From the IMG/VR virus record IMGVR_UViG_3300008261_000019, positions 1 through 60,014 of that record: a stretch of 60,014 bases of DNA. The stretch is one strand, 5' to 3'. This document shows, piece by piece, positions 42,073 through 60,014 of this stretch; position 1 is the first letter of the stretch; every line of letters starts with the position of its first letter. The notes under the pieces are model-generated. The model did not search any database. It worked only from the letters and a program-made list of their open reading frames with translations, and had not been told where the DNA came from. Both the position numbers and the translations under genes were made by a program. This DNA is from a virus. Lineage: Duplodnaviria; Caudoviricetes.

Positions 42073-42835
42073 AAAAAGTTCTTCTACTTGGTTTTGCTCC
42101 TCTACTTGGACCTCTACTAGGTTTATAGCTTGTTGATTTACTATTCATTCTAGAGCCAAGCGATATAATTCCAGAAGTAGTAGTCTTATTGTTTTCAAAT
42201 GGCTTATCTTCACTTGAACCTATTCTTTTTGCACTACTGTCTGTTAGGTTTTTAAATGCATCTATTTTTGCAATCAGGGATGCATGGCGGACCTTAAACG
42301 TATCATTATATTTCATGTTAAATACATGAATTGCTATCATGATACAATCATGTATGTGTTCATTTTTACTTGAGTATACTGGCCTTCCATTCATACCGAG
42401 TCTTTCAACTCGATACTCTTCAAATTGCTTAATCGTTTTTCTATCGGAAGGATTAAATGCAAATTGATTTCTCTCAAATAAAAGAACTGTATTATTCACC
42501 ATAAATGGTTTGATGTCTTTTTTATCTCTAATCTTTGTAATTGGGTCTCTAATTGTTACTTTCTCCGAAAAGTTAATTCGTATTACTTTATGCTGAAGTC
42601 CTGATTGAGGATTTTTTTGTCCGTATAGTTTTAATTGCTCAATCTGATACTCTCCATGACCAGCATCAACTGCAATATAATCAAAATTATATATATCATT
42701 TAGTTCAATAATTTTTTTAATTGCATTATCATATGTGAACTCATTCCGAGGAATTTCTGCTCGAACGAATGGCGCAAACACACCAAACTCTTCTATATAC
42801 TGAACGCCGACCATATTTGTATCGTTCTCATATTT
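42071..42835 (-). CDS. terL: Terminase large subunit, exon 2 (RNase H-like nuclease domain)
   Basis: Extends in frame upstream of the ORF-track ATG as KYENDTNMVGVQ; YIAVDAGHG and EHIHDC acidic residues. Confidence 0.85.
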   Translation of the reverse strand, partial: KYENDTNMVGVQYIEEFGVFAPFVRAEIPRNEFTYDNAIKKIIELNDIYNFDYIAVDAGHGEYQIEQLKLYGQKNPQSGLQHKVIRINFSEKVTIRDPITKIRDKKDIKPFMVNNTVLLFERNQFAFNPSDRKTIKQFEEYRVERLGMNGRPVYSSKNEHIHDCIMIAIHVFNMKYNDTFKVRHASLIAKIDAFKNLTDSSAKRIGSSEDKPFENNKTTTSGIISLGSRMNSKSTSYKPSRGPSRGAKPSRRTF

Positions 42836-43972
42836 CAGTTATGTTACGAAGAGAATCGCTACTTCTCTCCTTCTATAGCTTTCACTATAGCTCAGACTAT
42901 ATCTTGCGCCATAAATTATTTATGGCGACTGAGCGCTTCGAGTCGCTTGACTCTACTCCTATCGGATAGTCGTTGAACCTTCCCCTCATCAGGGCTTGGC
43001 TGCGCAATGGGTTTAAAAACCGATTATCCAATCCTAATTATTTTATGAGCATTCACGTTTAGGCTTATCTCATCCTTGCGTTGTAGCTAATTAGGCTCTA
43101 AGGACTTTCCCGCAATTCACTCAGTAGGGACATATATTTATTATATTTTCGCTTCAATCTCATATTTTCGTTAGAATCTTTATAAAGCCAATTTAATATA
43201 TTAATAACGCTTTGTATTTTACTAGTTTGCAGAGATTTTATAGAAGAGTTTTTCATTTGATAAAGAGTTGTTAATTCTGGTAAATACTTTTTTATTTCGA
43301 GTAACATATCTTCTCCACCAGCGATTTTAAATGTCCAACAATTTCTACTAACTGTTAAACATCCATCTCCATCAAAATATCCTCTAATAAAATGATGTAC
43401 TAGACTTTTATCAATTACCGGCATTTTGCACACAATAGATTTTCTTTCAATAACTCCATGATTTATAAGGTCTTTGCACATTTGTGTAGAATTAACTTTT
43501 AATAAACAAGCAGAATGGTTTTTAATATTTTTAATTTGAATTTTATAATTTGATTCAATTTCTTTTTGAAAATTATTTAAATGGTCTATGTCATCACTAT
43601 TTAAATTTATTTGCAGTCTATATGAAAATTTATCAGAACCTTTATATACACATCCATCTGCCATTATAAATCCTAGCCAATATGCTTTTTCTGGAGTATC
43701 AATACTATAAAAGTATTTTTCGTTGAAAGAAAACTTTCTTGCTCCTTGCGAGCCGACATTTTGATTAATATCATAGTACTTCATTAAATTATAAACAGTC
43801 TTATAATTGACTGAATATAATTCCGCAATTTTATAAGCGCTTTTATATTTATTATAAAGATTTTCTAACTCTTGTTTTGAAGCAAATACCTTCATTTTGC
43901 CAGCCATATTATCACCTTCATATTAAGATAATAATATTATATAAGGTATTGTTTGAAAATACAATGATGTTT
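42836..43972 (-). ncRNA. Group I self-splicing intron in terL
   Basis: Exon 1 ends in U (TGGGAT) and the intron ends in G (ATAACTG). Core elements on the minus strand: GAATTGCGGGAAA (P), CGCAGCCAAG (Q), GTTCAACGACTA (R), AAGATATAGTC (S). IGS GTCCC pairs with exon GGGAT. Splicing restores GIDWD-KYEND. Confidence 0.9.
43098..43907 (-). CDS. Intron-encoded LAGLIDADG homing endonuclease
   Basis: Two motifs, YWLGFIMADG and FIRGYFDGDG, plus an N-terminal HTH-like segment. Confidence 0.92.
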   Translation of the reverse strand: MAGKMKVFASKQELENLYNKYKSAYKIAELYSVNYKTVYNLMKYYDINQNVGSQGARKFSFNEKYFYSIDTPEKAYWLGFIMADGCVYKGSDKFSYRLQINLNSDDIDHLNNFQKEIESNYKIQIKNIKNHSACLLKVNSTQMCKDLINHGVIERKSIVCKMPVIDKSLVHHFIRGYFDGDGCLTVSRNCWTFKIAGGEDMLLEIKKYLPELTTLYQMKNSSIKSLQTSKIQSVINILNWLYKDSNENMRLKRKYNKYMSLLSELRESP

Positions 43973-48915: not shown

Positions 48916-49010
48916 TCCGATTCTCCCCTAGATAATAGAAAACGGCTACTGGTCAGCGCTTAATCAGCAAATTGCTCCTAGTTCGCTCCGTAGCCGTATA
49001 TATTATTATT

Positions 49011-49205
49011 TTATTGAATATTACTGTAATTGTAAATCAAAAGTAACAAAATCATAAATCCTAATAATAAATTATAAAATAAAATACGGACCATCATGTT
49101 GGTTAACTGACGATTTAAATAATACGCGATAATTATGTCCGCAATATTAAATCCAACAAATCCTAAGATAATTCCCATGCAGAATATTACTGCAACCATG
49201 AGCAA
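49011..49205 (-). CDS. Small membrane protein (two TM segments; holin-like possibility)
   Basis: 64 aa with two hydrophobic segments; SD GGAGTG. Confidence 0.5.
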   Translation of the reverse strand: MLMVAVIFCMGIILGFVGFNIADIIIAYYLNRQLTNMMVRILFYNLLLGFMILLLLIYNYSNIQ

Positions 49206-49235
49206 TCACTCCAAGAGATGTATTACACATATGGT

Positions 49236-49529
49236 TTATGTATTTGGCTTGCTAATTTTTAAATCATCTCTGCATTCTTCGCAATATCTTTTCTTTCTCT
49301 CTTTTCTTTTAATCAAAACAACCTTTTTGCAAAATACGCATTGATACTCTTTGTCATTTCGTTCCTGTAAATTTGCAGTAGGAATATTGTATTTAATCCG
49401 TGTACGGTTAATTGTTGCACGGGAGCATCCTATAACATCCGCAATTTCTTTATCAGTCAAGCCCTCTTGTTGGCTTAGTCTTGTTATTTCTTTTACTAAA
49501 AATGGTAGCATTAGATTACACTTCCCCAA
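49236..49529 (-). CDS. HTH plus zinc-ribbon protein (putative transcription regulator)
   Basis: GLTDKEIADVIGCSRATINR HTH; CVFC...CEEC. Confidence 0.7.
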   Translation of the reverse strand: MGKCNLMLPFLVKEITRLSQQEGLTDKEIADVIGCSRATINRTRIKYNIPTANLQERNDKEYQCVFCKKVVLIKRKERKKRYCEECRDDLKISKPNT

Positions 49530-50595
49530 AAAATGAAATTTATCTATTTTTTCATAGATATTTGTAACATCTTTTTACTCTAATAAATTATTCTACTCCA
49601 CCCTTCTCCACTTTTTCAAATCACCCCTCTCAAAGACTCCGTCTGTATAAGGTTCCATTTTTTACTATTTCTATAATTATACTATTTAGTCATATATTGT
49701 TAATAGGCGCAACCCACAGTTATTTGCCTCAATCATGATAAAGCTGTCTGAAGAGCCGTGTTCAACTCACATAAAAAAATACCATCAAAGACCGAGGTTA
49801 TGTTCCTCCGAAGATTCTGTAACTATGTCTTCGGTCTGTATTTTTCTAGCCTCGTTTTGTATAAGGTTTTAGATTTGTAGATGACAATGTCAATTCTTGC
49901 CATTTCAGCTATAAACCTTAGTACTTGAGTATCTTTTTTTATCTTTTAATAGCTAGTAGTTATATATAGTTAGGTAATATATAAGTTATAAATAATAGAA
50001 CACCTCGCCTAGGCCAATGTGTGACATGACTAATGTTTAATTTGTGAACATTTTGTGTCTAATACTTATACACTATGTATAACCATTGTATAATAATATG
50101 GTATTAAAATGGGAATTTTACATATCATATTTTTGATATGAAGTACATACATTGGATTAATTTTATTGTAGCACAGTTTTCTTGTAATTTATTCAAATTG
50201 TTTTGAAAACAAATAGAAATATTTTTGTAATTAGTTAGCACAAGTTAGCGCTTACATTTTATTCATGAATTTAATGAGTCATATGTGCGAAGCACATATT
50301 TGAATTCTAATCATTTATTGCATCTTATTTTTAAATTCCTTATAGGAATAAAAAATTATACATATATATTTTTGGGACCCTGCCTTTTTATTTAAAGGGG
50401 CGGGGTCTTTTTTATTTATTTTTATTTTCTTATAAATAAATTCAAATATTTCATATATATTTTTTGCGGTGCGAAAATCGTTAAGGGGTTGGAAAAAGTA
50501 TATATATTTTTCTGCGGTGCCAGGCCTATATATTAATGTGAACCACAGCGTTCGATGCCCCACTGGTATTAGACGTTGTGTGCCTCCGCGTCTCA

Positions 50596-50653
50596 AGGGT
50601 AAGAAGCATATACGATACTACTTCGGTAGTTACTCGACAAGTATATGTACCTT
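50596..50653 (+). ncRNA. Unidentified structured RNA motif, copy 1
   Basis: GGT-AAGAA-GCATATAC-GAT-ACTAC-TTCG-GTAGT-TACTCGACAA-GTATATGT-ACC; covaries with the copy at 51842. Confidence 0.6.
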
Positions 50654-50706
50654 AATCACTGTCGTTACCGTCACATGCCAATAAGCTAGATACACTAGAT
50701 GAGGCA

Positions 50707-51321
50707 ATGAAAGGAGATGTCTCTATGTTGGAGATGTTGTTGTTTGGGTTGTTGTCTGCTTTAGTTGTTATTCTATTGATGCCTGCTGATGTGCAAGCAT
50801 CTATTCGTCGTGCGCTTGTGTCTGCTGCTCGTCGCTTTGCTGATGTCATTGAGTCGGGTCATGCTCGTGCTGCTAGTCGTCCTGTTACTGAATCCTCTAA
50901 AGAAGGTATTACCAAGAAGAATCCTTGGTCTGAGCCAAAGGTAGTATCGGTTGAAAAAGTTGTTGACGTTGATGCCCTTGAGCGTCGCTTTGCTATGATA
51001 CAAGACCAGCTTGATGCATCGCAAAACCGCTTTCAGTCGTTCTTGTACAATTACCATGGCGATATGGCTCGTGTTGGGGATAAGCTTCAAGAGGTTGATG
51101 GATTGGATAGACAATTAGATTCTACACACTCCAGTATCGAATATCTTCGCTCATTAGACCGTAAGCTTGAGCTTAGAGTAATTGCAATTGAGGAATTACT
51201 ACAATCACCTCGCGAACTTAAGGAAGCTCTTGAAAAGGTTGAAGACCAAGCAACCCAGCTTCGTAAAGAAATTGAACGTCAGAATGCTATCACTGAACAG
51301 TTGAAAAAGTTTGAGTACTAA
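50707..51321 (+). CDS. Membrane-anchored coiled-coil protein
   Basis: N-terminal TM and heptad C-terminus; likely start is the ATG at ~50725 behind AAAGGAG. Confidence 0.7.
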   Translation: MKGDVSMLEMLLFGLLSALVVILLMPADVQASIRRALVSAARRFADVIESGHARAASRPVTESSKEGITKKNPWSEPKVVSVEKVVDVDALERRFAMIQDQLDASQNRFQSFLYNYHGDMARVGDKLQEVDGLDRQLDSTHSSIEYLRSLDRKLELRVIAIEELLQSPRELKEALEKVEDQATQLRKEIERQNAITEQLKKFEY

Positions 51322-51329
51322 AATCGTTC

Positions 51330-51360
51330 AGGGTCAGGGGCTTCGGTCTCTGGCCCTTTT
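51330..51360 (+). terminator. Intrinsic terminator
   Basis: AGGGTCAGGGGC-TTCG-GTCTCTGGCCCT-TTT. Confidence 0.75.
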
Positions 51361-51392
51361 ATATATAAATCACACTACAAGGAGTTGTTGTT

Positions 51393-51830
51393 ATGTTTGT
51401 ATTCTTTGGTTTTGTCTTTTCATTCTGCTTGATTGTTGTTCTATTGCAAAAGGCTGGTAAGTACCGTGTATTACGGGTAATCGGTGATGTTCTTCGTGAT
51501 ATCGCTGATAAGGTTGAGGGCGTTACTATTGAGACTCGTGAGATTGATGAGTCCCAAGTTCCATCGAATATTCTTAAGGCTGCTAAGTTAGCGCAGCCAG
51601 TCAGCTTAGTAAGTGGTCCTAAAGTATGTGCAGTGTTTGAGTGTGTACTTGATGATGGGTCTGTTACTACGTTAGAGGTTCATGAGTTAGAATCGGTTAT
51701 TTGGATAACTGAGGTTTATCTCAATGGATTTGGCTTCAAGAAGGTTGCTGAGCGTCCTAGTATCAGCATGCATCGCAAGGTATTCGTTGATGGTAAATGT
51801 ACTGTCTGCGAGTACTTTCTCCCTCTTTAA
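51393..51830 (+). CDS. Hypothetical membrane-anchored protein
   Basis: SD AAGGAG; N-terminal TM. Confidence 0.7.
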   Translation: MFVFFGFVFSFCLIVVLLQKAGKYRVLRVIGDVLRDIADKVEGVTIETREIDESQVPSNILKAAKLAQPVSLVSGPKVCAVFECVLDDGSVTTLEVHELESVIWITEVYLNGFGFKKVAERPSISMHRKVFVDGKCTVCEYFLPL

Positions 51831-51841
51831 TCGTTGTTCAT

Positions 51842-51899
51842 GGTGAGAAGCTTACCTAATACTCATCTCCACATGAGTCACTTGGCAAGGGTAAGTACC
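51842..51899 (+). ncRNA. Unidentified structured RNA motif, copy 2
   Basis: GGT-GAGAA-GCTTACCT-AAT-ACTCAT-CTCCAC-ATGAGT-CACTTGGCAA-GGGTAAGT-ACC. Confidence 0.6.
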
Positions 51900-51934
51900 T
51901 AATTCATATTCATTTAATTAAAGGAGATGTTCTT

Positions 51935-52255
51935 ATGTTTAATGTTAAGTTGAATCGCAGAGGTAAGATTGTTCGACTGTTGTTTGTTGTCGCATTGTTC
52001 ACAATGATTATTACTGGTATTGCGGATAGCTTCTTCAAGGATGCATTTAAGGTAGTGGATTACGAAGAGGTAGTTGTCTCTGATGGAGATACCATCTGGA
52101 TGTTGTGCAAGAAGTTTAATGGACGAGTAATTGCATCATCGACCGGGGATGTTGGTGAATGTGTTCATCATGTAAGTAAGATGAATCCTGAGCAATCTGA
52201 TACGTTACGCTCTGGTGATGTTATTAAGATGCCTGTATTGGCTGTTAATGAGTAG
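51935..52255 (+). CDS. TM plus LysM protein, YneA-like cell division inhibitor
   Basis: N-terminal TM; VVVSDGDTIWMLC...MNP...TLRSGDVIKMP LysM; 106 aa, the same architecture as Bacillus YneA. Confidence 0.7.
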   Translation: MFNVKLNRRGKIVRLLFVVALFTMIITGIADSFFKDAFKVVDYEEVVVSDGDTIWMLCKKFNGRVIASSTGDVGECVHHVSKMNPEQSDTLRSGDVIKMPVLAVNE

Positions 52256-52280
52256 TCGTTCAATGACTTGATTTGAATAT

Positions 52281-52316
52281 GGAGAGGGCCTCATAGATGG
52301 GGTCTTCTCCTTTTTA
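52281..52316 (+). terminator. Intrinsic terminator
   Basis: GGAGAGGGCCTCA-taga-TGGGGTCTTCTCC-TTTTT. Confidence 0.7.
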
Positions 52317-52318
52317 TT

Positions 52319-52377
52319 TTCTTCATAATGCAGCCATTGACGGTCACAAGCCCGTATGAGAAATGCAGAGTGGGAAG
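52319..52377 (+). ncRNA. Twister ribozyme (type P1)
   Basis: cttca-TAA-TGCA-GC-cattga-CGG-TC-ACAAGC-CCG-tatgagaaa-TGCA-GAG-tggg matches twister architecture; predicted cleavage between U52326 and A52327. Confidence 0.85.
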
Positions 52378-52623
52378 TCATATCACGGAAAGGAGTTGAT
52401 GAGGTGCTAAACAACTTGCAGTGCTCCACCATTGCAAGCCTAGCAGTACGGGCGCTACAACGTCGTCAGTCAGAATCGTTTACCAGGAATACCATGCCAC
52501 TTTTACTGAATTTCTTGGGCATGGAGATGTTCTTAAATTCTTGGTTCCATGGGGACGCCTGTGAATTGCAGTGGACGTGCAATCTAACAAGACGTTACTA
52601 CTACACGAAAGGAGGTGATTTTT

Positions 52624-53157
52624 ATGTTTGATTGGCTAGCAGAATACGACAAAGGTATCCCCATTGAAGAAAATGAAACATCTAACATCGATGAGTTCCG
52701 TATCGCCTACGAATACCAAGACCTCAAAGAAACACTTGGTATCGCTCATCACAACTTCAATCAATCAGAAGAGGCATTTTTATTAGCACTCAAATCTGAT
52801 GACCTCAGTACCTTTGCCTATCACTACAGACGGTTTTTAGGTTTTAACCGCCAAGCTAGCATCTTTGTCGATGCTTCTGTAGCCATGATGAGACGTAATG
52901 CTGAGTTGGGTTATCTTGGGATTGATGAAGACAAAGCATTTAGACGCTATTGGAGATATGCTGGATTTAAGTTTCATAACCAGCAAATCACTGATACGTT
53001 TAAGAACTTGCAAGTTACGCCAGTATCTAAACCAGAAGAGAGGAGGGACCTGAACCTAAATGTTCCTGATTTCAAAGAATTCCCGATTGAAATTAGTGCA
53101 GCGCACCGTCTCGACCCATATGGGTTCAATACTGACGGATTTGGGCATTTCTATTGA
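52624..53157 (+). CDS. Hypothetical protein
   Basis: Perfect SD GAAAGGAGGTGAT followed by ATG at 52624; the ORF track starts at 52615. Confidence 0.7.
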   Translation: MFDWLAEYDKGIPIEENETSNIDEFRIAYEYQDLKETLGIAHHNFNQSEEAFLLALKSDDLSTFAYHYRRFLGFNRQASIFVDASVAMMRRNAELGYLGIDEDKAFRRYWRYAGFKFHNQQITDTFKNLQVTPVSKPEERRDLNLNVPDFKEFPIEISAAHRLDPYGFNTDGFGHFY

Positions 53158-53428
53158 TGATTTTATTGTTAATAGAATTGAAATTGTAGAAAGTCGAATT
53201 CATGGGTATACAGGTAATCCATCCGAGAGAAGTAGCATTCATATTTATTTATCTCTACCTGTATTGTTCTCAAATTCTTTAATGGCTTTCAAGCCCGTTG
53301 CTCGTCGCTTTATTTGCTTCGAATTGGTCAAAGAACTATACCACTACTGGTCTAGTATCAATCGCATTGAATATAACCCAGCTTGGGCTGAATCTTATGC
53401 CGAACAGTGGGTCAAGGAAAATCTGTAA
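53060..53428 (+). CDS. Hypothetical protein
   Basis: Overlaps the previous ORF; true start is probably the ATG near 53120. Confidence 0.5.
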   Translation: MFLISKNSRLKLVQRTVSTHMGSILTDLGISIDDFIVNRIEIVESRIHGYTGNPSERSSIHIYLSLPVLFSNSLMAFKPVARRFICFELVKELYHYWSSINRIEYNPAWAESYAEQWVKENL

Positions 53429-53432
53429 TACC

Positions 53433-53460
53433 CGTCCTGAGCATGACGTTAAAAGGCTTC
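53433..53460 (+). ncRNA. Compact H-type pseudoknot motif, copy 1
   Basis: CGTC-CTGAGCAT-GACG-TTAAAAG-GCTT; loop GAGC pairs with GCTT. Confidence 0.5.
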
Positions 53461-53494
53461 CTCTTCATGAGGACTAAAAAAGGGAGGCAAAACA

Positions 53495-53971
53495 ATGCCA
53501 AAATCACCACATGCAAACTGGTCTGTATGGTCATTACTTCACCTTGAAGACAATGATGTCGTATATGGACCAAAAGTCTCAATCGATAAAATTGAGAAAA
53601 TCGTCAACACCCTGCAACCACCCATCAAGGTGATTGTAAGAGTTGATAATCGCGAGACCATCATCAAAGAAATGGCGTTCAAAGCCAAGGAGTCAGGTTG
53701 CGAAATCCATCTCGAAGACAATCGTAATCCCCGACATCCCATTCCCCACATGAACGACGACTGGTCAATGGTCCGTTATCGTGGTGGAGTAATCATTAAC
53801 GGTAAGCCCGAGACCGTAACACAGGCAATTAATGATGAGATTTATGGCTATAAACAAGACCTCATTGTTAGGTACGATTTAAAGCGTTACATCATTGATG
53901 AGGCATTGTATTCCGCCGAGATTCAGCGCAAGTACGATGTCTTATTACTTGAGCCAGTAGCCCGTCACTAA
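53495..53971 (+). CDS. Hypothetical protein
   Basis: SD AGGGAGG; 158 aa. Confidence 0.75.
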   Translation: MPKSPHANWSVWSLLHLEDNDVVYGPKVSIDKIEKIVNTLQPPIKVIVRVDNRETIIKEMAFKAKESGCEIHLEDNRNPRHPIPHMNDDWSMVRYRGGVIINGKPETVTQAINDEIYGYKQDLIVRYDLKRYIIDEALYSAEIQRKYDVLLLEPVARH

Positions 53972-53978
53972 ATCCCCC

Positions 53979-54015
53979 AGCACCCTGACAGATGGTGCTC
54001 TATAAATAGTCTGTC
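53979..54015 (+). ncRNA. Compact H-type pseudoknot motif, copy 2
   Basis: AGCACC-CTGACAGAT-GGTGCT-CTATAAATAG-TCTGTC; loop GACAGA pairs with TCTGTC. Confidence 0.55.
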
Positions 54016-54040
54016 CACTTTACTAAAAGGAGATAGTGAT

Positions 54041-54553
54041 ATGCAAAAAATCAAAGTTAACTTGCCTGTACAGAGGTCGTACTCAAACATTGTTGGCTTC
54101 CAGGTCAAGGGAGTTCCTTACTCGAATCAGCAATGGATTCGTCTCGAGTCTGATAACCCGGAGGGGCTTATTCCGGAAATGAACGTATCGCTTAATGTAG
54201 GCCCTGGCATGTCGCTTTACATTGGTCGTAATGACCAGAATGTATACCGCTTTGGTCTTTGGTACGAAGATGAAACCCTTCGCCCAGGGCACGGGGGCTT
54301 TTGGTCATCAAACTGCGAGTTTGTTCGGGAACAGACAGGAATTGACCTAGTTCCAATCAGTATTGCAAAACCAGGCGACACGGGAATTGCGGCTTACATG
54401 CGAGCAGACATTCTTGCGCTGATATCAATTAAATTTGGCTACAGACTAGTATGGGGTCGCTTTTATTATGATGACCCTCACTGGCATGCAGTTCCGATTG
54501 GTCAACCAAATCCTGAAGAACTTCCACCTCAGGAAAAGTGGTGGAAAGATTAA
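54041..54553 (+). CDS. Hypothetical protein
   Basis: SD AAGGAG; 170 aa. Confidence 0.75.
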   Translation: MQKIKVNLPVQRSYSNIVGFQVKGVPYSNQQWIRLESDNPEGLIPEMNVSLNVGPGMSLYIGRNDQNVYRFGLWYEDETLRPGHGGFWSSNCEFVREQTGIDLVPISIAKPGDTGIAAYMRADILALISIKFGYRLVWGRFYYDDPHWHAVPIGQPNPEELPPQEKWWKD

Positions 54554-54613
54554 TCCCGCCTGACGAGTCCTAAAGGACGAAACCTGTAGCCTTCGGGCTA
54601 TGGGTCGTGGGAT
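54553..54613 (+). ncRNA. Hammerhead ribozyme (type I)
   Basis: Stem I ATCCCGC/GTGGGAT; core CTGACGA; stem II GTCC-taaa-GGAC; GAAA; stem III ACCTGTAGCC-ttcg-GGCTATGGGT; GTC triplet with cleavage after C54606. Confidence 0.93.
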
Positions 54614-54925
54614 ATGATTTACCCACAATTTATACAGAAAGGAAGTGATGGCCATCTGTATCGTAGTGCTCCACCACTACCGCTACAGAAAATCCCCTGC
54701 AACACGACCAATCATCAAGACGCTACACACACCCTCTACGTACTCCACGTACACCCTGTCGTCCCGTCGTCAAAGTCAGTTGTCTGTCGTTAACTTTCGC
54801 CCATTTAGTGAGTTCATGGGCGAAGAGAGTCACATAAACTCTTGTTTCCATGGCTAGCCGTGTGAGGGTTTATAAACGCTCAAGCTAATCAGCCGTAAGG
54901 CAAAACTAAAAGGAGGTATCCCACG

Positions 54926-55582
54926 ATGGATACAAACAAAGACAAAATGATGGCATTCTTGTCATCAATGACCGAAGAGCAAGCTTCAACTTTCATGGCA
55001 ATGCTTTCGCAACAAGAAGCTCCTGTCACAACTAAACCAATTGAAGTAACATGCGCACCATCAGTTGCACCGTTCTTTGCAGTAATTATTAATGAACCGT
55101 GGTTTCATGCAACAATCGATATGTATCCGGTAGCAGGCGGTTGGTCGGAATGGAAGTTTGCTGACCTTGCAAAAGCAAAAATGGCTGAATTTAAGATTGC
55201 TGAAGATTCCGATACTGCTGGCGATGCATGGGTTTTTCTTAATCGTATGCTTGGTCTTACTGGTAGCAAGGAGGACCGTTGTTTTATCGCTGAAGCTGTA
55301 TGCGAAATGTTGGGTATGGAGTACAGACATTCTTACCGCGTAGCAGACAAAGTATCTGATGTCATTGCCTGGGCAGTTGATAAAACTGGTATTAGCATTC
55401 AATGGGTTGGCAATAAAGTCGTTCTTGTTGGTGAATGGACGCAAGACCGCGCACCTGATGCTGGCGGCTTAGTAGGCAAGCCTCTTCGCTGGGCAACTGA
55501 TGTAGTCAGCAATGGCAAGCAAAATATCAGCAACTTGAAGCAAGCGTATAATCAAGTGAAAGACAACAAAGCCACTGAGTAA
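54926..55582 (+). CDS. Hypothetical protein
   Basis: SD AAGGAGGT; 218 aa. Confidence 0.75.
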   Translation: MDTNKDKMMAFLSSMTEEQASTFMAMLSQQEAPVTTKPIEVTCAPSVAPFFAVIINEPWFHATIDMYPVAGGWSEWKFADLAKAKMAEFKIAEDSDTAGDAWVFLNRMLGLTGSKEDRCFIAEAVCEMLGMEYRHSYRVADKVSDVIAWAVDKTGISIQWVGNKVVLVGEWTQDRAPDAGGLVGKPLRWATDVVSNGKQNISNLKQAYNQVKDNKATE

Positions 55583-56109
55583 TCGGTGGTTTTCCTGTCT
55601 ATCAGGAGGAATGAGGGTTTATCCCTTTTCCTTGAGTACATCTGATTAGGTGTATTCAAGGAAGACGGATATGCCAGTTGCTATCTGGTCTTCAAAAATT
55701 TAATCCGAAAGGAGGTGATTTATTATTTCACCAGCACTATCCCGCACCAAGGGGAGTGGAGAGTCAAGCGCAAGTCGAGATGTAGCCTACCAGTATTCGT
55801 AGTTTTACTTTCATCTAACAAACAAAGGCACCCGACGTTTTTTGCGCTACTTATCCCTGCGGAGGTGAGCTAGTTGCACGTGGAAGTCGTTCAGTCAAGC
55901 AAGTCCTGTCGTCCGTCGGTATCGTTCAGTCGCTCAAGTCAAGTTGTCAGTCGGTGTAATCAAGCAGATGCTTTTCTTATCTATGGGGAGGTCTGGGGTC
56001 TAACATAGATGGCTCCATGGGATTGTCTTCTCATACGCAGTAAACGCTCAAGCTAATTGCCTGTAGCTCAAATTCAAAACCACCAAAAATAAAGGGAGAT
56101 GTATTTATC

Positions 56110-57042
56110 ATGATGAAAATTCAAAACGTTCAAGTTATCAGCACAAACGAGGTGACTCGTGCAATTAAGGTTGCTCTGGAGAATGGCAAATGCTTTACGG
56201 CTGGCTTCTCTGCAACAACACCAGATTTTATGATTCAACGCACCAACGGCGTAGTCGCATCCACAACGAAGTCTGCAGTTATTGCATCTTTCAAAGGCCA
56301 TATGGATATCACTGATATCAAGACACTTGCAGAACACATCAATGCATTGCGTCCGGTGGTATTCGGCAAGTCAACGCAAAACGTAAACATCCTGCCAAAA
56401 GTTAAAAAGGAATACAAAGCAACTTGTGCATGCTGCGGTGTTGGTTTGACTGATAAAGTCATTGATTTCTGCAATCGCAAGTTGTTCGGTGAAATGGTTT
56501 GTTTTGATTGCCAAAAAGGTCCGAAAGGTCCTAAGAAGGAGGGCGCGAGCGAAGCGAGCGCCCCTACTCCTTCCTCCATTTCAGCTCCTCAAGTATCTGT
56601 TCAGGACTCTGCTCCTGTAGCAGATGCTCTTGAGGATATGCGTTTAGAAATGGAGGAGATTCGTAAACAAATGGAATCAGACCCTGATTGGATTGATTCC
56701 ATTTCTGTTACAACTACTATTCCTAGGGCGAGCGAAGCGAGCGTAAGAACCAAATGCACAAAATGCGATGGTTCTGGTAAACTCCATTTTTATGTGCATG
56801 TACAAAATGGAGTATGCTTCCGATGCAAAGGCAGAGGGTATTTTAGCGCTAAGCCAAAAAACACTGCTCCTTCAAGCCTGAAGGAGTCAGAGGATGTTGT
56901 CGTTACTGATAACGAAAAAACACCTATCTCAGAGCAGTCATCCGCTGAGGTAGGTGTGGTTATATCGAACGATGCCGTGGCCTGGACGAAGTCGCTTGAA
57001 GAAAGTTTACTGGAGAGCGACTTGGTGGCAGACCGGAATTAA
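56110..57042 (+). CDS. Zinc-finger protein with DnaJ-type CxxCxGxG repeats
   Basis: CACC...CFDC and CTKCDGSG...CFRCKGRG; SD AGGGAG. Confidence 0.75.
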   Translation: MMKIQNVQVISTNEVTRAIKVALENGKCFTAGFSATTPDFMIQRTNGVVASTTKSAVIASFKGHMDITDIKTLAEHINALRPVVFGKSTQNVNILPKVKKEYKATCACCGVGLTDKVIDFCNRKLFGEMVCFDCQKGPKGPKKEGASEASAPTPSSISAPQVSVQDSAPVADALEDMRLEMEEIRKQMESDPDWIDSISVTTTIPRASEASVRTKCTKCDGSGKLHFYVHVQNGVCFRCKGRGYFSAKPKNTAPSSLKESEDVVVTDNEKTPISEQSSAEVGVVISNDAVAWTKSLEESLLESDLVADRN

Positions 57043-57083
57043 AGTGTCGGTAGGCAAGTGAATATAATTATTCGTGAATTTAT

Positions 57084-57132
57084 TACCTGGTATGCTTAAG
57101 CATACCAGGTATTTATATATAAGTCAAATTAA
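57084..57132 (+). promoter_or_regulatory. Palindromic leader element, copy 1
   Basis: TACCTGGTATGCTT/AAGCATACCAGGTA, a 9-nt spacer, then AAGTCAAATTAA. Confidence 0.55.
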
Positions 57133-57146
57133 AAAATAAAAGGAGA

Positions 57147-57752
57147 ATGAATATGTCAATTAACATTTTTGCATTTAAATCTTCAGGAACTAAGATACCG
57201 GTTGATGTGTCTGGTGTAACCAGACTTGTCTCACTCCGTAATAAACCGGATACAAATATCTTATATGGCCTTATTGGTGATGGCGGAAAGTTCTACTGGG
57301 ATACAACGTACTCCCTTCCGCTTGTTCACGTTAAACAATATACAAAGATGCCTAAGCAACAGGTCCGACGTGTGGCTAAGGCATTTATCTGCGGTTATAT
57401 TAATAAACTCGTTGAGTCACGTCTAACAGACAACAAAAGTCCTATGCATTTTGAATCCATTGAACGAACAGAAGAGTATCTAAGACGAGCTACTGCAAGT
57501 GCGGAGTCTGAAGGACGTATCTCTGGAGTACCGAGATGGATGAGGGAAAATTGCAAGGTATGGACGCCTTGTTACTCAAGGACCACTGGGGAGTTGTTAT
57601 ATTACCGTAGAACGAAGTATACATCCGATGATGTTACTCGAGCACTGGTTGCTCGGTACTTACCATTGTGTGCTGGATGTATCCTTCGTGTAGATTGCGA
57701 TAAGCCATGTAATGCTCCGGAGTCTGTATCCGTAAAGACCTTTATTTCCTGA
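57147..57752 (+). CDS. Hypothetical protein
   Basis: SD AAGGAG; 201 aa; C-terminal Cys cluster. Confidence 0.7.
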   Translation: MNMSINIFAFKSSGTKIPVDVSGVTRLVSLRNKPDTNILYGLIGDGGKFYWDTTYSLPLVHVKQYTKMPKQQVRRVAKAFICGYINKLVESRLTDNKSPMHFESIERTEEYLRRATASAESEGRISGVPRWMRENCKVWTPCYSRTTGELLYYRRTKYTSDDVTRALVARYLPLCAGCILRVDCDKPCNAPESVSVKTFIS

Positions 57753-57802
57753 TATGGCACCCGGGGAGGTATTATTTATATTCGTAATTAATTTATTATC
57801 TC

Positions 57803-57852
57803 TACCTGGTACACTGTAAGTGTACCAGGTATTCTGATAAAAGTCAAATTAA
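57803..57852 (+). promoter_or_regulatory. Palindromic leader element, copy 2
   Basis: TACCTGGTACACT-gta-AGTGTACCAGGTA, a 9-nt spacer, then AAGTCAAATTAA. Confidence 0.55.
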
Positions 57853-57870
57853 TCAAAGGAGAGATTTATT

Positions 57871-58257
57871 ATGATGAATGATTTTCAACAAGACAGAGAA
57901 GTATCAAACTTTAATCAAGTCAAAGAGATGTACCGTGATTACTTTGGGCCTTATGTTCAGACAGATGCTGATAAGGATTTCTTTAATCAGCTCTGGCTTG
58001 CAGCTTGTTCTTGTGCCCTATTTTACCTCGATGAAGTGTACTTGAAAGGCTTCAAGTACTCCAAGGAAGAGGTCACATCTGATTATCTTGCAGATAAGGT
58101 CTGGGCAGTAAATAATCCGTTTCGCCCGATGAAGCCGTTTGGCCTGTATCAACCAGTTAAGAGAAAGGTCTTTACCTCAGGTAATAAGCAGTATGTTTTG
58201 TATACTTACTACAATCATGATACTGACTTTCTCTTCTTGCGGGTCTTTTGTGATTAA
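57871..58257 (+). CDS. Hypothetical protein
   Basis: SD AAGGAG; 128 aa. Confidence 0.7.
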   Translation: MMNDFQQDREVSNFNQVKEMYRDYFGPYVQTDADKDFFNQLWLAACSCALFYLDEVYLKGFKYSKEEVTSDYLADKVWAVNNPFRPMKPFGLYQPVKRKVFTSGNKQYVLYTYYNHDTDFLFLRVFCD

Positions 58258-58425
58258 TCAATTTCCAGTTGCAATGAGTGAAAAAAGTCCATTTTGGCCT
58301 AGAGCAGGTGCAACTGATTGTTACTTATTTGCACCTGTTTCTTTATTTTTAGAGATAATTGGCCTTAGCCGAATTGGAAGTAATGGAAACGATTGTCAGT
58401 ATTATAAGCTTGTGAAACAGAATAA

Positions 58426-58441
58426 TGTTTCACGTGGAACA
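58426..58441. promoter_or_regulatory. parS: parS site (Spo0J/ParB binding)
   Basis: TGTTTCACGTGGAACA is the reverse complement of TGTTCCACGTGAAACA, matching the Bacillus parS consensus TGTTNCACGTGAAACA. Confidence 0.88.
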
Positions 58442-58459
58442 TTTCTTACTCCTACACAT

Positions 58460-58475
58460 TGTTTCACGTGGAACA
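58460..58475. promoter_or_regulatory. parS: parS site (Spo0J/ParB binding)
   Basis: Second identical TGTTTCACGTGGAACA, 34 bp from the first. Confidence 0.88.
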
Positions 58476-58667
58476 AATACATCGGTCCCCGCGCTTCGCG
58501 CTCAGTCCTATTAGCAAAAGTGAGTTATCGATTTTCAACGATTTTTGGCTATTACGCATCAATTATCGTTGATTTCTGTTACAAAAATATCGATTTTCAA
58601 CGGAAAAGAGGTGAGAAAAATGAGCTTTTTGAGGTTTATGAGATATAATTACTCGAAATGTGAGGTG

Positions 58668-58757
58668 CTAGGCCCAAGGGGGTTTTTGATGTCTATTGAA
58701 GGCCCAATCCCTGTTTTGGAGGTTATTGAAGGCCCGATGGCTCTTTTGGAGGTTATT
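58668..58757. repeat. Three imperfect 30-bp tandem repeats
   Basis: GGCCC at 58671, 58701 and 58731, each followed by TTTT(G)GA(T/G)GT(C/T)TATT. Confidence 0.7.
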
Positions 58758-59188
58758 ACTGATTTCATGTCTTTCTTAAGCTCTTTTGAGGATATATTCC
58801 TTCCTTACTCTACTCATGATACTTACTACTCTTCTTACTGTTTACTACCGATTACTCTTGCTTATTTTCCTTATTATTATTCTTTTAATCTTGGTTATTG
58901 CTCTTTGGTATTAGGATTAACTCCTTCTTACCGTTTCCGAGCGATGGATTTTAATTCTTTCCAATCCGCGGTAATTATACATGGATATCATTACCTTCAT
59001 GATAATTACTCCTTATTTTCCCGTTCGCTGGCGCTCTGTCGTGCTCCTTGTTACTTTCCTGTTGTGCTTGGTTTCCCGTTCGCCATCGGTGCTCCTGTCG
59101 TGGTCCTGATGGCGATTTATGATTTTTATTTATTTCTTATCAGTTCATTTTTATTTATCATTCTAATTTTAATTAAAAAGGGAGATTG

Positions 59189-60014
59189 ATGATTATGCCA
59201 TTGAAACGTTCACAGTTTGTTGTACCTGTATTGGATTGCCGTGATTTTGATATTACTGCTGATGGGTTGCTTTTTAATTCCGACAAAGCGATTCGCGTTT
59301 CCATTTCCGAAAACCGTTTGTTCCGCATGTTCGGTGCCGAGAATTTCTGCATCTTGACTGGTCATAGTAAGGTCAAGAAACATATTCGTTCCGCGATGCT
59401 GTTTAAAGGTTTCATGATGGACGGTAAACATTGGGTTCGTGTGATGCGTTCTCCTTCTCAGTTCCGTACTGCTAAAGCGTACTACACTTGCTTAGACCGC
59501 GATATGGTTCGCAAAGCTGTTGTTCATGATGCGGATTTGGGTTGGTTAAATGAAGCTAATATCGCAAAAGCAGAATCCCGTATTGGTGGTCAATCCCTTG
59601 CTTCTACGATTTCTTTAGTTGCTGATTTCACATTTAAAGTGGTTCCCGATGTTGTGAAAACCATGAAGCTGTCCATCGGTAAAATCGTTGATGGCAAGCT
59701 CACTACGGAAGCAACTGATGTTGATGTCAATCTTACTGATGGCAATGGCTTGGTTAAGTATGCTACGGCTCAAGGCTGGGCAATGGATTTAGGTCTTACT
59801 TATGTTCCATCTTTGTTCCAGTTCCGTTATGGCGGTATGAAGGGTACTTTGACTGTTTGGGATTGGGACGGAGCTGAAGATATCATCTTCACTAGTGGTC
59901 AGGTCAAGTATCAATGTGATTTGAGTCAGTGCAATATGGAAATTCTTCAGTATCAGAAACCTGCTCACTCTCCTTGGGCTCGACTTCATTCTCAAGCAGT
60001 TACGCAATTAACGG
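59189..60014 (+). CDS. YonO-like / cellular RdRP-family single-subunit RNA polymerase, 5' part (truncated by the window)
   Basis: Not in the ORF track. SD AAGGGAG with ATG at 59189 or 59195. Translates MPLKRSQFVV...RSPSQFRTAK...NLTDGNGLVK...VPSLFQFRYGGMKGTL, matching the DG.G and PS.FQ.RYGG.KG motifs of the eukaryotic RdRP/YonO family. Confidence 0.85.
   Translation, partial: MIMPLKRSQFVVPVLDCRDFDITADGLLFNSDKAIRVSISENRLFRMFGAENFCILTGHSKVKKHIRSAMLFKGFMMDGKHWVRVMRSPSQFRTAKAYYTCLDRDMVRKAVVHDADLGWLNEANIAKAESRIGGQSLASTISLVADFTFKVVPDVVKTMKLSIGKIVDGKLTTEATDVDVNLTDGNGLVKYATAQGWAMDLGLTYVPSLFQFRYGGMKGTLTVWDWDGAEDIIFTSGQVKYQCDLSQCNMEILQYQKPAHSPWARLHSQAVTQLT

What the first reader, a model, noticed from the sequence alone, without database searches (positions are those of the whole stretch)
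50530..58260. Early operon punctuated by ribozymes and other structured RNAs at almost every gene boundary, upstream of an RdRP-family polymerase
Seen: most intergenic spaces here hold a discrete structured element. In order: motif X (50596), terminator, motif X (51842), terminator plus twister (52319), GUC element A, pseudoknot (53433), pseudoknot (53979), hammerhead (54553), GUC element B, long hairpin, GUC element C, palindrome (57084), palindrome (57803). Established: twister and hammerhead cleavage leaves 5'-OH and 2',3'-cyclic phosphate ends. Inference: the early transcript self-processes into separate, end-protected mRNA and ncRNA modules, forming an RNA-programmed expression system that may be coupled to the YonO/RdRP-like enzyme.
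Basis: partly seen in the sequence, partly recalled or inferred. Interest (0 to 1): 0.88.

Follow-up and report, generated by a model that had tools for sequence, protein, structure and literature searches.

The report
Ribozyme-punctuated early operon of lake phage
Two genuine self-cutting RNA motifs, a twister and a hammerhead, sit with terminator hairpins and some unexplained RNA-like spacers between the small early genes of an uncultured lake phage; this is a good new example of an arrangement described in phages since 2011.

Summary
The window is a 60-kb freshwater phage contig. The plus-strand block 50.5-58.3 kb holds 11 small orphan genes. It is 25.8% non-coding, against 4.6% in the structural block.

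Confirmed:
- A P3-less twister (52322-52376, E 8e-8).
- A type I hammerhead (54554-54612, E 3e-4).
- Both score below Rfam's gathering cut-offs, but every core feature is present. Each core pattern matched more than 110 IMG/VR phage contigs.
- Four intrinsic-terminator-like hairpins, one long perfect hairpin and a repeated palindrome unit.

Real but orphan: "motif X", two copies with covarying stems and no relative anywhere searched.

Weak:
- The "GUC elements" share only short sequence blocks, and they may be leaders, ncRNAs or small ORFs.
- The two "pseudoknots" have no support.

Best reading: the ribozymes cut a polycistronic early transcript into pieces with structured ends. This was proposed for phages in 2011 and is still unproven, and no RNA data were available. 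This scan has noted such operons before on other DNA (55 notes).

New lead: this twister subtype co-occurs with RdRP/YonO-family polymerase genes. They are present in 11 of 45 twister-bearing records and 0 of 25 hammerhead-bearing records, usually within 10 kb of the twister. Only 1 of 8 deposited YonO-type phages has a twister.

The parts
50374..50409 (+). 16-bp terminator-like hairpin with T-run, upstream of the operon at the edge of a 1.5-kb mostly non-coding region
   Evidence: the weak PyrR and sRNA Rfam hits here are this hairpin only
50598..50651 (+). Motif X copy 1: GGU/ACC closing pairs, 5-nt bulge RAGAA, 8-bp stem, asymmetric internal loop (RAU / YACUYGRCAA), apical hairpin; in the 5' leader of gene 1
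51330..51357 (+). Intrinsic-terminator-like hairpin (12 bp plus T-run) between gene 1 and gene 2
   Evidence: (z -5.24)
51842..51899 (+). Motif X copy 2, between gene 2 and gene 3; apical hairpin carries a CUCCAC loop
52281..52310 (+). Intrinsic-terminator-like hairpin (13 bp plus T-run), ending 11 nt before the twister
   Evidence: (z -4.02)
52322..52376 (+). Twister ribozyme, type P1, without P3. P1 UUC(A)/(G)GAA, P2 UGCA/UGCA, P4 ACGG/CCGU, T1 CAC:GUG, T2 GC:GC. Predicted cleavage between U52326 and A52327
52377..52623 (+). Element A: 247-nt spacer between the twister and gene 4. Not GUC-rich. SD-like block plus 3-codon mini-ORF at its start. Shares a UUCCAUGG hairpin block with B and C
53429..53494 (+).
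   Evidence: z -0.26
53972..54040 (+). Intergenic spacer with a 6-bp hairpin whose loop could pair with UCUGUC downstream; weak
   Evidence: z -2.02; 6 of 200 shuffles fold as well
54553..54613 (+). Hammerhead ribozyme, type I. Stem I AUCCCGC/GUGGGAU, core CUGACGA, stem II GUCC-UAAA-GGAC, GAAA, 10-bp stem III, GUC. Predicted cleavage between C54606 and G54607
54614..54925 (+). Element B: spacer between the hammerhead and gene 8. GUC cluster around 54711-54840, hairpin with CUCCAC loop, block AAACGCUCAAGCUAAU shared with C. Holds a 70-aa ORF of uncertain reality
55582..55689 (+). Long hairpin structure with an 18-bp perfect stem (55626-55665) after gene 8; RNase III-type site or 3' stabiliser (inferred)
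   Evidence: z -5.44
55691..56109 (+). Element C: 419-nt spacer before gene 9. Densest GUC run of the whole window (55861-55980), including a 34-nt tandem duplication
   Evidence: (D2, D5, D17)
57084..57111 (+). Palindrome 1: 12-bp terminator-like hairpin within a repeated about 100-nt intergenic unit before gene 10
57803..57831 (+). Palindrome 2: 13-bp hairpin, paralogue of palindrome 1 with two compensatory changes; weak T-run
59186..60013 (+). N-terminal 276 aa of an RdRP/YonO-family polymerase; the ORF runs off the contig
   Evidence: PF05183 74.3 bits, cut-off 23.8; P0012, 89% identical, 1005 aa

Best explanation
The plus-strand block is the early or middle operon of an uncultured freshwater tailed phage. 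It is transcribed as long polycistronic RNA, probably by the host polymerase. Two self-cleaving ribozymes in that RNA cut it at two gene boundaries.

The twister cuts 16 nt behind a strong terminator-type hairpin. The upstream message therefore ends in hairpin-UUUUUAUUUUCUUCAU with a 2',3'-cyclic phosphate. The downstream message for genes 4-7 starts with a 5'-OH and the folded twister.

The hammerhead starts at the stop codon of gene 7 and stays on that message as a stable 3' cap. It releases the gene 8 message with a 5'-OH end that can fold into a small local hairpin (GUGGG...CCCAC).

Together with three or four intrinsic terminators and one long perfect hairpin, this divides the operon into segments. 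The stability and translation of each segment can then differ.

Shown: the motifs, their family membership and their positions. Inferred: cleavage in vivo, the role of the end structures, and differential expression.

Motif X and elements A, B and C are lineage-specific leader RNAs of unknown role. They occupy the places that RAGATH-type RNAs occupy in other phages with the same twister.
For: Twister:
- Rfam gives E 8.4e-8, and all conserved nucleotides align.
- The one deviation from the consensus is paired. L4 reads UCAC instead of UCCC, and L1 reads GAGUG instead of GAGGG. This keeps pseudoknot T1, which the review PMC6154101 describes as pairing between L4 and L1 (passages).
- I aligned the window copy with 43 P3-less copies, taken from 72 unique copies. 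92.9% of pair cells pair, against 81.0% in shuffles. 9 of 18 pairs show double changes, and 0 of 500 shuffles reach this.
- A 49-nt stretch is 100% identical in an unrelated 112-kb phage.

Hammerhead:
- E 2.9e-4 with a complete core.
- Fold z is -4.2.
- Its core and stem II pattern occurs in more than 119 IMG/VR contigs.

Specificity: no other ribozyme-like Rfam hit exists in the remaining 50 kb at E <= 1.

Family-wide context:
- In 12 phage loci with this twister, Rfam finds type II hammerheads, a pistol, RAGATH-4, -16, -28 and -36, ROOL and tRNAs.
- The 40 nt upstream of 71 such twisters fold to a mean of -10.9 kcal/mol, with 38 of 71 at or below -10. Controls give -6.1 (9 of 70) and -5.5 (6 of 65). 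The window's value is -17.9.

Literature:
- Perreault et al. 2011 (PMC3088659, passages) report clustered hammerheads flanking genes in prophages. They showed cleavage of about 2-kb polycistronic constructs in vitro and proposed that long phage transcripts are processed this way.
- The review PMC6765202 (passages) states the same hypothesis and says the function is still open.
Against: - Both ribozymes score below Rfam's gathering thresholds (46 against 67.2, and 30.3 against 34).
- The twister's P1 has only 3 standard pairs plus an A-G mismatch.
- A strong terminator sits directly before the twister, so much transcription may stop before reaching it.
- There are no relatives at intermediate distance to show conservation of positions.
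- The twister alone folds no better than shuffles (z -0.8). This is expected for a pseudoknotted RNA but gives no support.
- The proposed effects of the ends on stability and translation are untested for any phage ribozyme.
Confidence: 0.6

Rival explanations
1. The parts are unrelated, ordinary signals. The terminators end short transcripts. The palindrome units are terminator, operator or promoter modules. The long spacers hold small unannotated genes or dead gene remnants. The two ribozymes are horizontally acquired cassettes that cut RNA but serve no coordinated programme.
For: - An identical 49-nt twister core sits in an unrelated phage.
- Contigs of other organisms in the same lakes match only the twister core (loose ends at 52326-52341 and 52372-52375).
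- One strain's contig breaks exactly at the terminator|twister junction.
- Elements A, B and C hold ORFs of 47, 70 and 44 aa that share VLHH and FxEFxG-like strings, with three synonymous third-base differences in one block.
- A, B and C fold no better than shuffles.
Against: - The UUCCAUGG block shared by A, B and C is read in different frames in A and B.
- None of the small ORFs has a Pfam match, and their start contexts are poor.
- Non-coding density is 5.6 times that of the structural block.
- The hairpin-then-twister layout is enriched across the family, which argues for a function tied to the neighbouring RNA.
Confidence: 0.25
2. One reading: an integrated RNA-programmed expression system. 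Nearly every boundary element is a processing or end-protection module that releases separate mRNAs and ncRNAs, and the system is functionally coupled to the RdRP/YonO-like enzyme, for example as its template, primer or regulator.
For: - PF05183 polymerase genes occur in 11 of 45 records that carry this twister subtype (9 above the cut-off), and in 2 of 5 non-randomly chosen records.
- They occur in 0 of 25 hammerhead-bearing records (Fisher p 0.0057).
- By tblastn, homologues are found in 39 and 8 of 50,697 deposited phage records.
- In 11 of the 13 positive records the twister lies 2.9-10.0 kb from the polymerase match; in the window the distance is 6.8 kb.
Against: - Only 1 of 8 deposited phages with YonO-type polymerases has a twister-P1 match at E <= 1e-3.
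- The positive records look like a few related clades: the ORF lengths of 912, 916 and 923-924 aa recur. The counts are therefore not independent.
- YonO is a DNA-dependent polymerase that transcribes the late genes of SPbeta as one operon (PMC5467207, passages). In the window the late genes lie on the other strand.
- In most positive records the twister operon runs divergently from the polymerase gene.
- Two of the listed elements are unsupported, and A, B and C are only weakly alike.
Confidence: 0.07
3. The twister and the hammerhead bracket a 2.28-kb four-gene RNA (52327-54606) with a 5'-OH and a 2',3'-cyclic phosphate. A host RtcB-type ligase circularises it into a stable circular mRNA.
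For: The end chemistry is what RtcB joins (established knowledge, recalled). Both ribozymes would remain on the excised piece, given the positions.
Against: - No complementarity brings the two ends together.
- Perreault et al. looked for spliced or circular products of clustered phage hammerheads and detected none (PMC3088659, passage).
- No RNA data were available, so back-spliced reads could not be sought.
- Earlier follow-ups in this scan on similar brackets found no support (I did not check these).
Confidence: 0.03

Closest known systems
Clustered self-cleaving ribozymes flanking genes in prophage and phage operons (Perreault et al. 2011, PMC3088659), and the 'RAGATH' neighbourhoods of twister and hammerhead (Weinberg et al. 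2015, recalled; review PMC6765202, passages read)
   Same: Two different ribozyme classes lie on the sense strand between small phage genes. Unexplained structured or conserved RNAs sit beside them. In a phage with the identical twister, the order is terminator, twister, RAGATH-16, RAGATH-4, gene, which parallels terminator, twister, element A, gene here.
   Different: None of the window's extra elements (motif X, A, B, C) matches any RAGATH or other Rfam model. The host lineage is freshwater and has no close relatives in IMG/VR.
Twister ribozyme, type P1 (Rfam RF03160; structures reviewed in PMC6154101)
   Same: P1-P2-P4 order, U-A cleavage dinucleotide, conserved L1, L2 and L4 nucleotides, and both pseudoknots formable.
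   Different: It has no P3, which is present in 78% of twisters according to the review. T1 is CAC:GUG instead of CCC:GGG. There is a 3-nt insert between P4 and P2. The score is below the gathering cut-off, as for 13 of 13 relatives scored.
Hammerhead ribozyme, type I (Rfam RF00163)
   Same: CUGACGA, GAAA and GUC core, three stems, and an open stem I.
   Different: Stem III is long (10 bp plus UUCG). The score is 3.7 bits below gathering. No loop-loop contact between stems I and II is obvious.
RNase III processing of the phage T7 early polycistronic transcript (recalled, not read here)
   Same: An early phage operon is cut between genes, and hairpins are left at the 3' ends that stabilise the mRNAs.
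   Different: Here two cuts would be made by the RNA itself. Only the 18-bp hairpin at 55626-55665 looks like an RNase III substrate.
Minimal, P4-less HDV-like 'theta' ribozymes of phages (PMC10879173; introduction and one results section read; the descriptor is in a supplement I could not see)
   Same: Motif X can be drawn with the same strand order: P1, P2, P3, P1', C-containing junction, P2'. It sits in a phage non-coding region on the sense strand.
   Different: P1 would be only 4-5 bp. Three nucleotides separate P2 and P3. There is almost no room for P1.1 and L4. There is no Rfam HDV-type hit, and the motif is not next to a tRNA.
YonO of Bacillus prophage SPbeta (PMC5467207)
   Same: The window's 3' ORF belongs to the same Pfam family, PF05183. 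A full-length 89%-identical relative carries a DFDGD loop aligned with DKDGD of another phage's enzyme.
   Different: It is very distant. tblastn finds only 8 deposited phage records, the best being phage 0305phi8-36 at 27% identity. Its template and targets here are unknown.

Membership tests
Twister ribozyme (type P1, RF03160) | Helices P1, P2 and P4 in the type-P1 order | tested here: met
   cmscan alignment. In 44 aligned subtype members, P1, P2 and P4 covary: 9 of 18 pairs show double changes, and 0 of 500 shuffles reach this. The window's P1 has 3 standard pairs plus an A-G mismatch.
Twister ribozyme (type P1, RF03160) | Double pseudoknot: L4 pairs with L1 (T1) and with L2 (T2) | tested here: met
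   By inspection of the alignment, using the review's definition. T2 is GC:GC as in the consensus. T1 is CAC:GUG, a paired change from CCC:GGG. Within the subtype alignment T1 and T2 never vary, because the search pattern fixed them.
Twister ribozyme (type P1, RF03160) | Conserved nucleotides, including the U-A cleavage dinucleotide | tested here: met
   UAA, GCC, GGUC-CAAGCCCG, AAA and GAG all align.
Twister ribozyme (type P1, RF03160) | Rfam gathering score (67.2 bits) | tested here: not met
   46.0 bits. The missing P3 costs score. 13 of 13 subtype relatives scored are also below the cut-off (43-67.0 bits).
Twister ribozyme (type P1, RF03160) | Self-cleavage | not testable with these tools
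   No RNA run holds the DNA. A bench assay is needed.
Hammerhead ribozyme (type I, RF00163) | Catalytic core CUGANGA ... GAAA ... NUH | tested here: met
   CUGACGA at 54560-54566, GAAA at 54579-54582, GUC at 54604-54606.
Hammerhead ribozyme (type I, RF00163) | Three stems around the core, with stem I open | tested here: met
   The MFE structure equals the centroid and shows stems I (7 bp), II (4 bp) and III (10 bp). -29 kcal/mol, z -4.2.
Hammerhead ribozyme (type I, RF00163) | Rfam gathering score (34 bits) | tested here: not met
   30.3 bits, E 2.9e-4.
Hammerhead ribozyme (type I, RF00163) | Tertiary contact between stems I and II, needed for fast cleavage | not tested
   No loop in stem I is evident, and I did not search for a pseudoknot.
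HDV-like / theta minimal ribozyme (for motif X) | Nested double pseudoknot with a P1 of about 6-7 bp starting at the cleavage site (the typical length is recalled) | tested here: not met
   Only GGUR/YACU (4 bp, or 5 if it competes with P3) can be drawn from the two copies (by inspection).
HDV-like / theta minimal ribozyme (for motif X) | Catalytic cytosine at the first position of J4/2 (PMC10879173) | tested here: inconclusive
   A conserved C precedes AA and the P2 3' strand in both copies, but the register is one nucleotide shorter than in HDV (recalled).
HDV-like / theta minimal ribozyme (for motif X) | Match to Rfam HDV-type models | tested here: not met
   No hit at E <= 10 in 101-nt scans with the laxest filters.
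RAGATH RNA motifs (for elements A, B, C and motif X) | Match to a described RAGATH covariance model | tested here: not met
   The only RAGATH hit is RAGATH-1-hammerhead, which overlaps the hammerhead itself (24 bits, E 1.9).
Intrinsic terminators | GC-rich hairpin followed by a T-run | tested here: met
   Four + strand sites with 12-16 bp stems. For the region, 15 sites were found against 8.5 +/- 3.5 in shuffles.
RdRP/YonO-type two-barrel polymerase (PF05183) | Pfam match above the curated cut-off | tested here: met
   74.3 bits for the 276-aa fragment and 149.6 bits for the 89%-identical full-length P0012. The catalytic loop lies beyond the contig end.

The most novel reading that the evidence does not exclude
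Two things would have to hold. First, motif X (two covarying copies in early 5' leaders, matching no known family) would be a new class of self-cleaving or processing RNA, which would give this operon four ribozymes of three classes. Second, the ribozyme- and RAGATH-rich operon would form a conserved functional module with YonO/RdRP-type phage polymerase genes. For example, RNA self-processing might replace the pausing and termination control that these minimal polymerases lack.
Probability: 0.1. Interest if true: 0.75.

Novelty: new member of a known kind. Interest (0 to 1): 0.4.

Why it matters
What self-cleaving ribozymes do in phages and bacteria is still an open question (review PMC6765202). 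This locus is a compact, testable case. It has two ribozyme classes, each beside a strong end structure, in a short operon of a phage that is widespread in lakes (contigs in runs of 8 studies).

Three observations go a little beyond the textbook picture:
- A whole twister subtype common in phages falls below Rfam's cut-off, so standard annotation misses it.
- A strong hairpin directly upstream is a family-wide companion of these twisters. This suggests that the cut serves to leave a protected 3' end.
- The subtype is enriched near YonO-type polymerase genes. I found no paper on this link in the library searched.

Tried and rejected
Relatives of the operon:
- megablast of 8 kb against deposited phages gave no match.
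- The search for related loci with the 170-aa gene 7 product, the polymerase fragment and P0012 in IMG/VR found none.
- The alignment A1 in JGI metagenomes matched 117 pattern stretches, none confirmed.
- P0012 in GTDB genomes found none.
- Protein searches found only one relative at 47-53% identity for each of two operon proteins (P0002, P0008), and one 89%-identical polymerase (P0012), all on Logan contigs.
So the test 'do related phages swap element classes at the same boundary' was not done.
- The only hint is one strain's contig that leaves the window exactly at 52321|52322 into at least 219 unlike letters. The first 30 of these contain the heptamer CUGAUGA. I did not test this further.

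RNA evidence: no RNA holder was listed. Read laying used DNA contigs only, so it shows no starts or ends. None of the 40 listed strain differences lies in the twister, the hammerhead or motif X, but 48 more differences were not shown.

Motif X:
- The strict pattern gave 0 IMG/VR contigs.
- The relaxed pattern gave 23 JGI loci. On inspection only one sequence, present twice as L114 and L123, keeps a stem in register.
- Covariance model R1 found only the two window copies at E < 0.01, over 86 sources (0.94 Mb) and 100 sources (0.91 Mb).
- I considered hairpin-ribozyme, pistol, hatchet and riboswitch resemblances from memory and dropped them for lack of any Rfam hit.

Elements A, B and C:
- RNAalifold found one shared hairpin with no covariation.
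- blastn against 255 fetched loci found nothing.
- The paralogy of the downstream genes was tested and rejected: no pair scores below E 0.05.

Hammerhead product and RBS: the 5' end of the hammerhead's 3' product can pair over 9 bp with the RBS spacer of gene 8 (54916-54924). In shuffles, 2374 of 20000 have such a complement somewhere and 191 of 20000 have one near the RBS. With a slightly longer 3' context the MFE prefers a local hairpin instead. I do not rely on it.

Mini-hairpin promoters of YonO-type polymerases, a lead from earlier scan notes: I inspected the minus-strand intergenic spacers by eye and saw no repeated motif. I made no formal search.

Literature: 'YonO' plus 'ribozyme' gave 4 papers, all unrelated by title. 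'RAGATH' plus 'RNA polymerase' plus 'phage' gave 4 papers, none on this link by title or abstract. Subscription papers such as Roth 2014 and Weinberg 2015 are not in the library, and I cite them from recall. Supplements were closed, so I did not see the theta-ribozyme descriptor (Supplementary Fig. 6 of PMC10879173).

Full report
WHAT THE WINDOW IS. The window is the whole record held, one 60,014-nt contig. It is a tailed-phage genome fragment.
- Portal and major-head genes and other large genes fill the minus strand from 1 to 48.9 kb.
- After a 1.5-kb AT-rich gap, a plus-strand block of small genes starts near 50.5 kb.
- Public runs that hold the DNA are lake and freshwater metagenomes. 15 rows from 8 studies hold at least part of it, and one of them may be the source.
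- The 11 genes of the block have no informative Pfam or PHROG match. The exceptions are a weak LysM-like hit for gene 3 and a zinc-ribbon family for gene 9.
- The ORF that runs off the 3' end (59186-60013) belongs to the RdRP/YonO family PF05183 (74.3 bits, cut-off 23.8). An 89%-identical full-length relative of 1005 aa scores 149.6 bits.

THE TWO RIBOZYMES ARE REAL. At Rfam gathering thresholds the window has no hit at all. With E-value reporting on 50000-60014, two hits stand far above the noise: twister-P1 at 52322-52376 (46 bits, E 8.4e-8) and Hammerhead_1 at 54554-54612 (30.3 bits, E 2.9e-4). The next best hit has E 0.73. The other 50 kb give nothing ribozyme-like at E <= 1.

The hammerhead:
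- It has the complete CUGACGA / GAAA / GUC core and three stems.
- It folds to -29 kcal/mol (z -4.2), and the MFE structure equals the centroid.
- Stem I starts at the last A of the gene 7 stop codon. Cleavage is predicted after C54606.

The twister:
- It lacks the optional P3. The review PMC6154101 says P3 is present in 78% of twisters.
- It has one paired deviation from the consensus. L4 reads UCAC and L1 reads GAGUG, where the consensus has UCCC and GAGGG.
- The review states that L4 pairs with L1 and L2 to form T1 and T2. The change is therefore compensatory and keeps T1.
- Cleavage is predicted between U52326 and A52327.

BOTH BELONG TO LARGE PHAGE SUBTYPES.
- A pattern for the hammerhead core with the GUCC/GGAC stem II matched more than 119.
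- Among 72 unique twister copies from the 113 loci, the four P1 positions pair fully in 47 and at three positions in 17.
- I aligned the window copy with the 43 copies that lack P3. 92.9% of pair cells are standard pairs, against 81.0% in shuffles. 9 of 18 pairs show changes on both sides, and no shuffle of 500 and no slid register comes close. T1 and T2 are invariant there because the search pattern fixed them.
- None of these twisters reaches Rfam's gathering score. None is reported in 12 loci scanned at gathering. 13 of 13 scored in six loci lie at 43-67.0 bits. This subtype is therefore invisible to routine annotation.
- One unrelated, complete 112-kb phage (G002) carries a 49-nt stretch identical to the window's twister.

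THE CONTEXT IS THE KNOWN 'RIBOZYME NEIGHBOURHOOD'.
- In 12 loci around such twisters, Rfam finds type II hammerheads (7), a pistol, RAGATH-4, -16, -28 and -36, ROOL and tRNAs.
- Several phages have 3-4 twisters within a few kb.
- In G002 the order is terminator, twister, RAGATH-16, RAGATH-4, gene, then a second twister and RAGATH-36. This parallels terminator, twister, element A, gene in the window.
- Perreault et al. 2011 described multiple hammerheads flanking single genes or short gene blocks in prophages. They showed cleavage of about 2-kb polycistronic constructs and proposed processing of long phage transcripts into shorter mRNAs. They did not detect spliced or circular products (PMC3088659, passages).
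- The 2019 review repeats that twisters and hammerheads share gene neighbourhoods, that processing of polycistronic RNAs has been suggested, and that the role is unknown (PMC6765202, passages).
- This scan has recorded the same arrangement before on other DNA: 55 notes in at least 50 genomes. I took the Perreault reference from those notes and checked it myself.

THE OTHER LISTED ELEMENTS. Four plus-strand terminator-like hairpins are solid. One of them is the first 'palindrome'. The second palindrome is its paralogue: the intergenic units are 79% alike, with two compensatory changes at the stem apex. This fits an RNA hairpin and a DNA operator equally well. The 18-bp perfect hairpin after gene 8 is very stable (z -5.4) and looks like an RNase III-type site or a 3' stabiliser. 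That is an inference.

Motif X is a real repeat.
- It has 2 matches in the window and 0 in 100 shuffles.
- In its 8-bp stem the six inner pairs differ between the copies and still pair.
- The bulge RAGAA and the internal-loop strand YACUYGRCAA are conserved.
- It matches no Rfam family even in 101-nt scans.
- It has no convincing relative in IMG/VR, in JGI metagenomes, or in 1.85 Mb of ribozyme-bearing phage loci.
- It can be drawn with the strand order of a P4-less HDV-like ribozyme, a kind known from phages (PMC10879173). However, P1 would have only 4-5 bp and other junctions do not fit, so I do not file it there.

The two 'pseudoknots' have no statistical support (z -0.26 and -2.0).

The three 'GUC elements' are long spacers of 247, 312 and 419 nt.
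- They share only short blocks and one hairpin without covariation.
- GUC excess is strong in C, borderline in B and absent in A.
- They fold no better than shuffles.
- They contain small ORFs with some shared strings, but one shared block is read in different frames.
- Whether they are leaders, ncRNAs or small genes is open.

Overall, 8 of 11 boundaries hold a supported element. The block is 25.8% non-coding, against 4.6% for the structural block.

HOW IT MOST LIKELY WORKS. The twister sits 11 nt behind a 13-bp terminator hairpin. Across the family, the 40 nt upstream of the twister are much more structured than control segments: mean -10.9 against -6.1 and -5.5 kcal/mol, with 38 of 71 at or below -10 against 9 of 70 and 6 of 65. 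This corresponds to the optional P0 hairpin mentioned in the review. Cleavage therefore leaves the upstream message with a 3'-terminal hairpin, whether or not the polymerase terminated there. It frees the downstream message with a 5'-OH and the folded twister.

The type I hammerhead cuts at its own 3' side. It remains as a stable cap on the gene 7 message. The gene 8 message starts with GUGGG..., which can pair locally with CCCAC 15 nt downstream.

I therefore read the operon as being divided into segments (genes 1-3, 4-7, 8, 9 and so on) by a mix of terminators, two ribozymes and one long hairpin. End structures then set the stability of each segment. Only the motifs and their positions are shown. 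Cleavage in vivo and its consequences are inferred.

THE POLYMERASE LINK.
- PF05183 matches occur in 11 of 45 IMG/VR records of at least 40 kb that carry this twister subtype (9 above the cut-off; 5 of 19 records that are at least 90% complete).
- They also occur in 2 of 5 records that I had picked for other reasons.
- They occur in 0 of 25 records of the same size class picked through the hammerhead pattern. Fisher p is 0.0057.
- Among 50,697 deposited phage records, tblastn with two such polymerases finds 39 and 8 records, all from Bacillota hosts where a host is named.
- In 11 of the 13 positive records the twister lies 2.9-10.0 kb from the polymerase match, mostly on the opposite strand. 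In the window it lies 6.8 kb upstream on the same strand.

Caveats:
- Recurring ORF lengths suggest that the positives are a few related clades.
- The comparison sets are not random phages.
- The methods differ between collections.
- The reverse does not hold: only phage c-st, of 8 deposited YonO-type phages, has a twister-P1 match.
- YonO itself is a processive DNA-dependent polymerase for late genes (PMC5467207).

The link is a lead, not a mechanism. I found no paper on it in the library searched.

VERDICT. The core of it, two ribozyme classes plus structured elements between early genes next to an RdRP-family polymerase gene, is correct. The 'RNA-programmed system' reading is not supported. 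This is a new member of a known kind, with three modest extras: an orphan covarying motif, a twister subtype that lies below the Rfam threshold, and a twister-polymerase co-occurrence worth a proper survey.

Noticed in passing
L258:15594-15648 (record G002), compared with window 52326-52374: A complete 112-kb phage with unrelated proteins carries a twister core identical over 49 nt (its polymerase is 21% identical to the 89%-identical relative of the window's polymerase, P0012). It is followed by RAGATH-16 and RAGATH-4. This suggests recent horizontal exchange of ribozyme cassettes between distant phages.
   Followed up: partly
window 52321|52322: In run X2 a strain contig (about 2.5% diverged upstream) leaves the window exactly between the terminator and the twister, into at least 219 unlike letters that contain a CUGAUGA heptamer. 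A second contig enters at 52322. Something is inserted or swapped at this module boundary.
   Followed up: partly
window 54607-54615 and 54916-54924: The 5' end released by the hammerhead (GUGGGAUAU) is complementary over 9 bp to the spacer between the SD and the start codon of gene 8. Shuffles give such a match near the RBS in 191 of 20000 cases. A local hairpin competes with it.
   Followed up: partly
window 58426-58441 and 58460-58475: Two identical 16-nt palindromic parS-like sites lie 34 nt apart (repeat D19).
   Followed up: no
window 48916-50400: A 1.5-kb AT-rich stretch with only short ORFs lies between the divergent gene blocks. It ends in a 16-bp hairpin at 50374-50409. Repeated TATATAT...TGCGGTGC boxes at 50450-50530 may be promoters.
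   Followed up: no
window 50706-50729, 51916-51939, 56088-56111: Three genes share a 24-nt ribosome-binding module (AAAGGAGATGT...ATG). The start of gene 1 is therefore probably 50726, not the ATG at 50707.
   Followed up: partly
window 56545-56560 and 56728-56743: An exact 16-nt repeat GCGAGCGAAGCGAGCG occurs twice inside gene 9, which encodes a zinc-ribbon protein.
   Followed up: no
window 42815-43097 (minus strand): A 283-nt intergenic spacer in the structural block contains a CUGAUGAG string and GUC-rich runs. It has no Rfam hit at E <= 1.
   Followed up: no
window 51861-51878, 52420-52443, 54664-54681: Three unrelated hairpins carry the same CUCCAC hexaloop: the motif X copy 2 apex, element A and element B. 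Its meaning is unknown.
   Followed up: no
NC_007581.1 43341-43430: Clostridium phage c-st, which has a split YonO homologue, has a twister-P1 match (53 bits, E 3.6e-12) about 120 kb from that gene.
   Followed up: no
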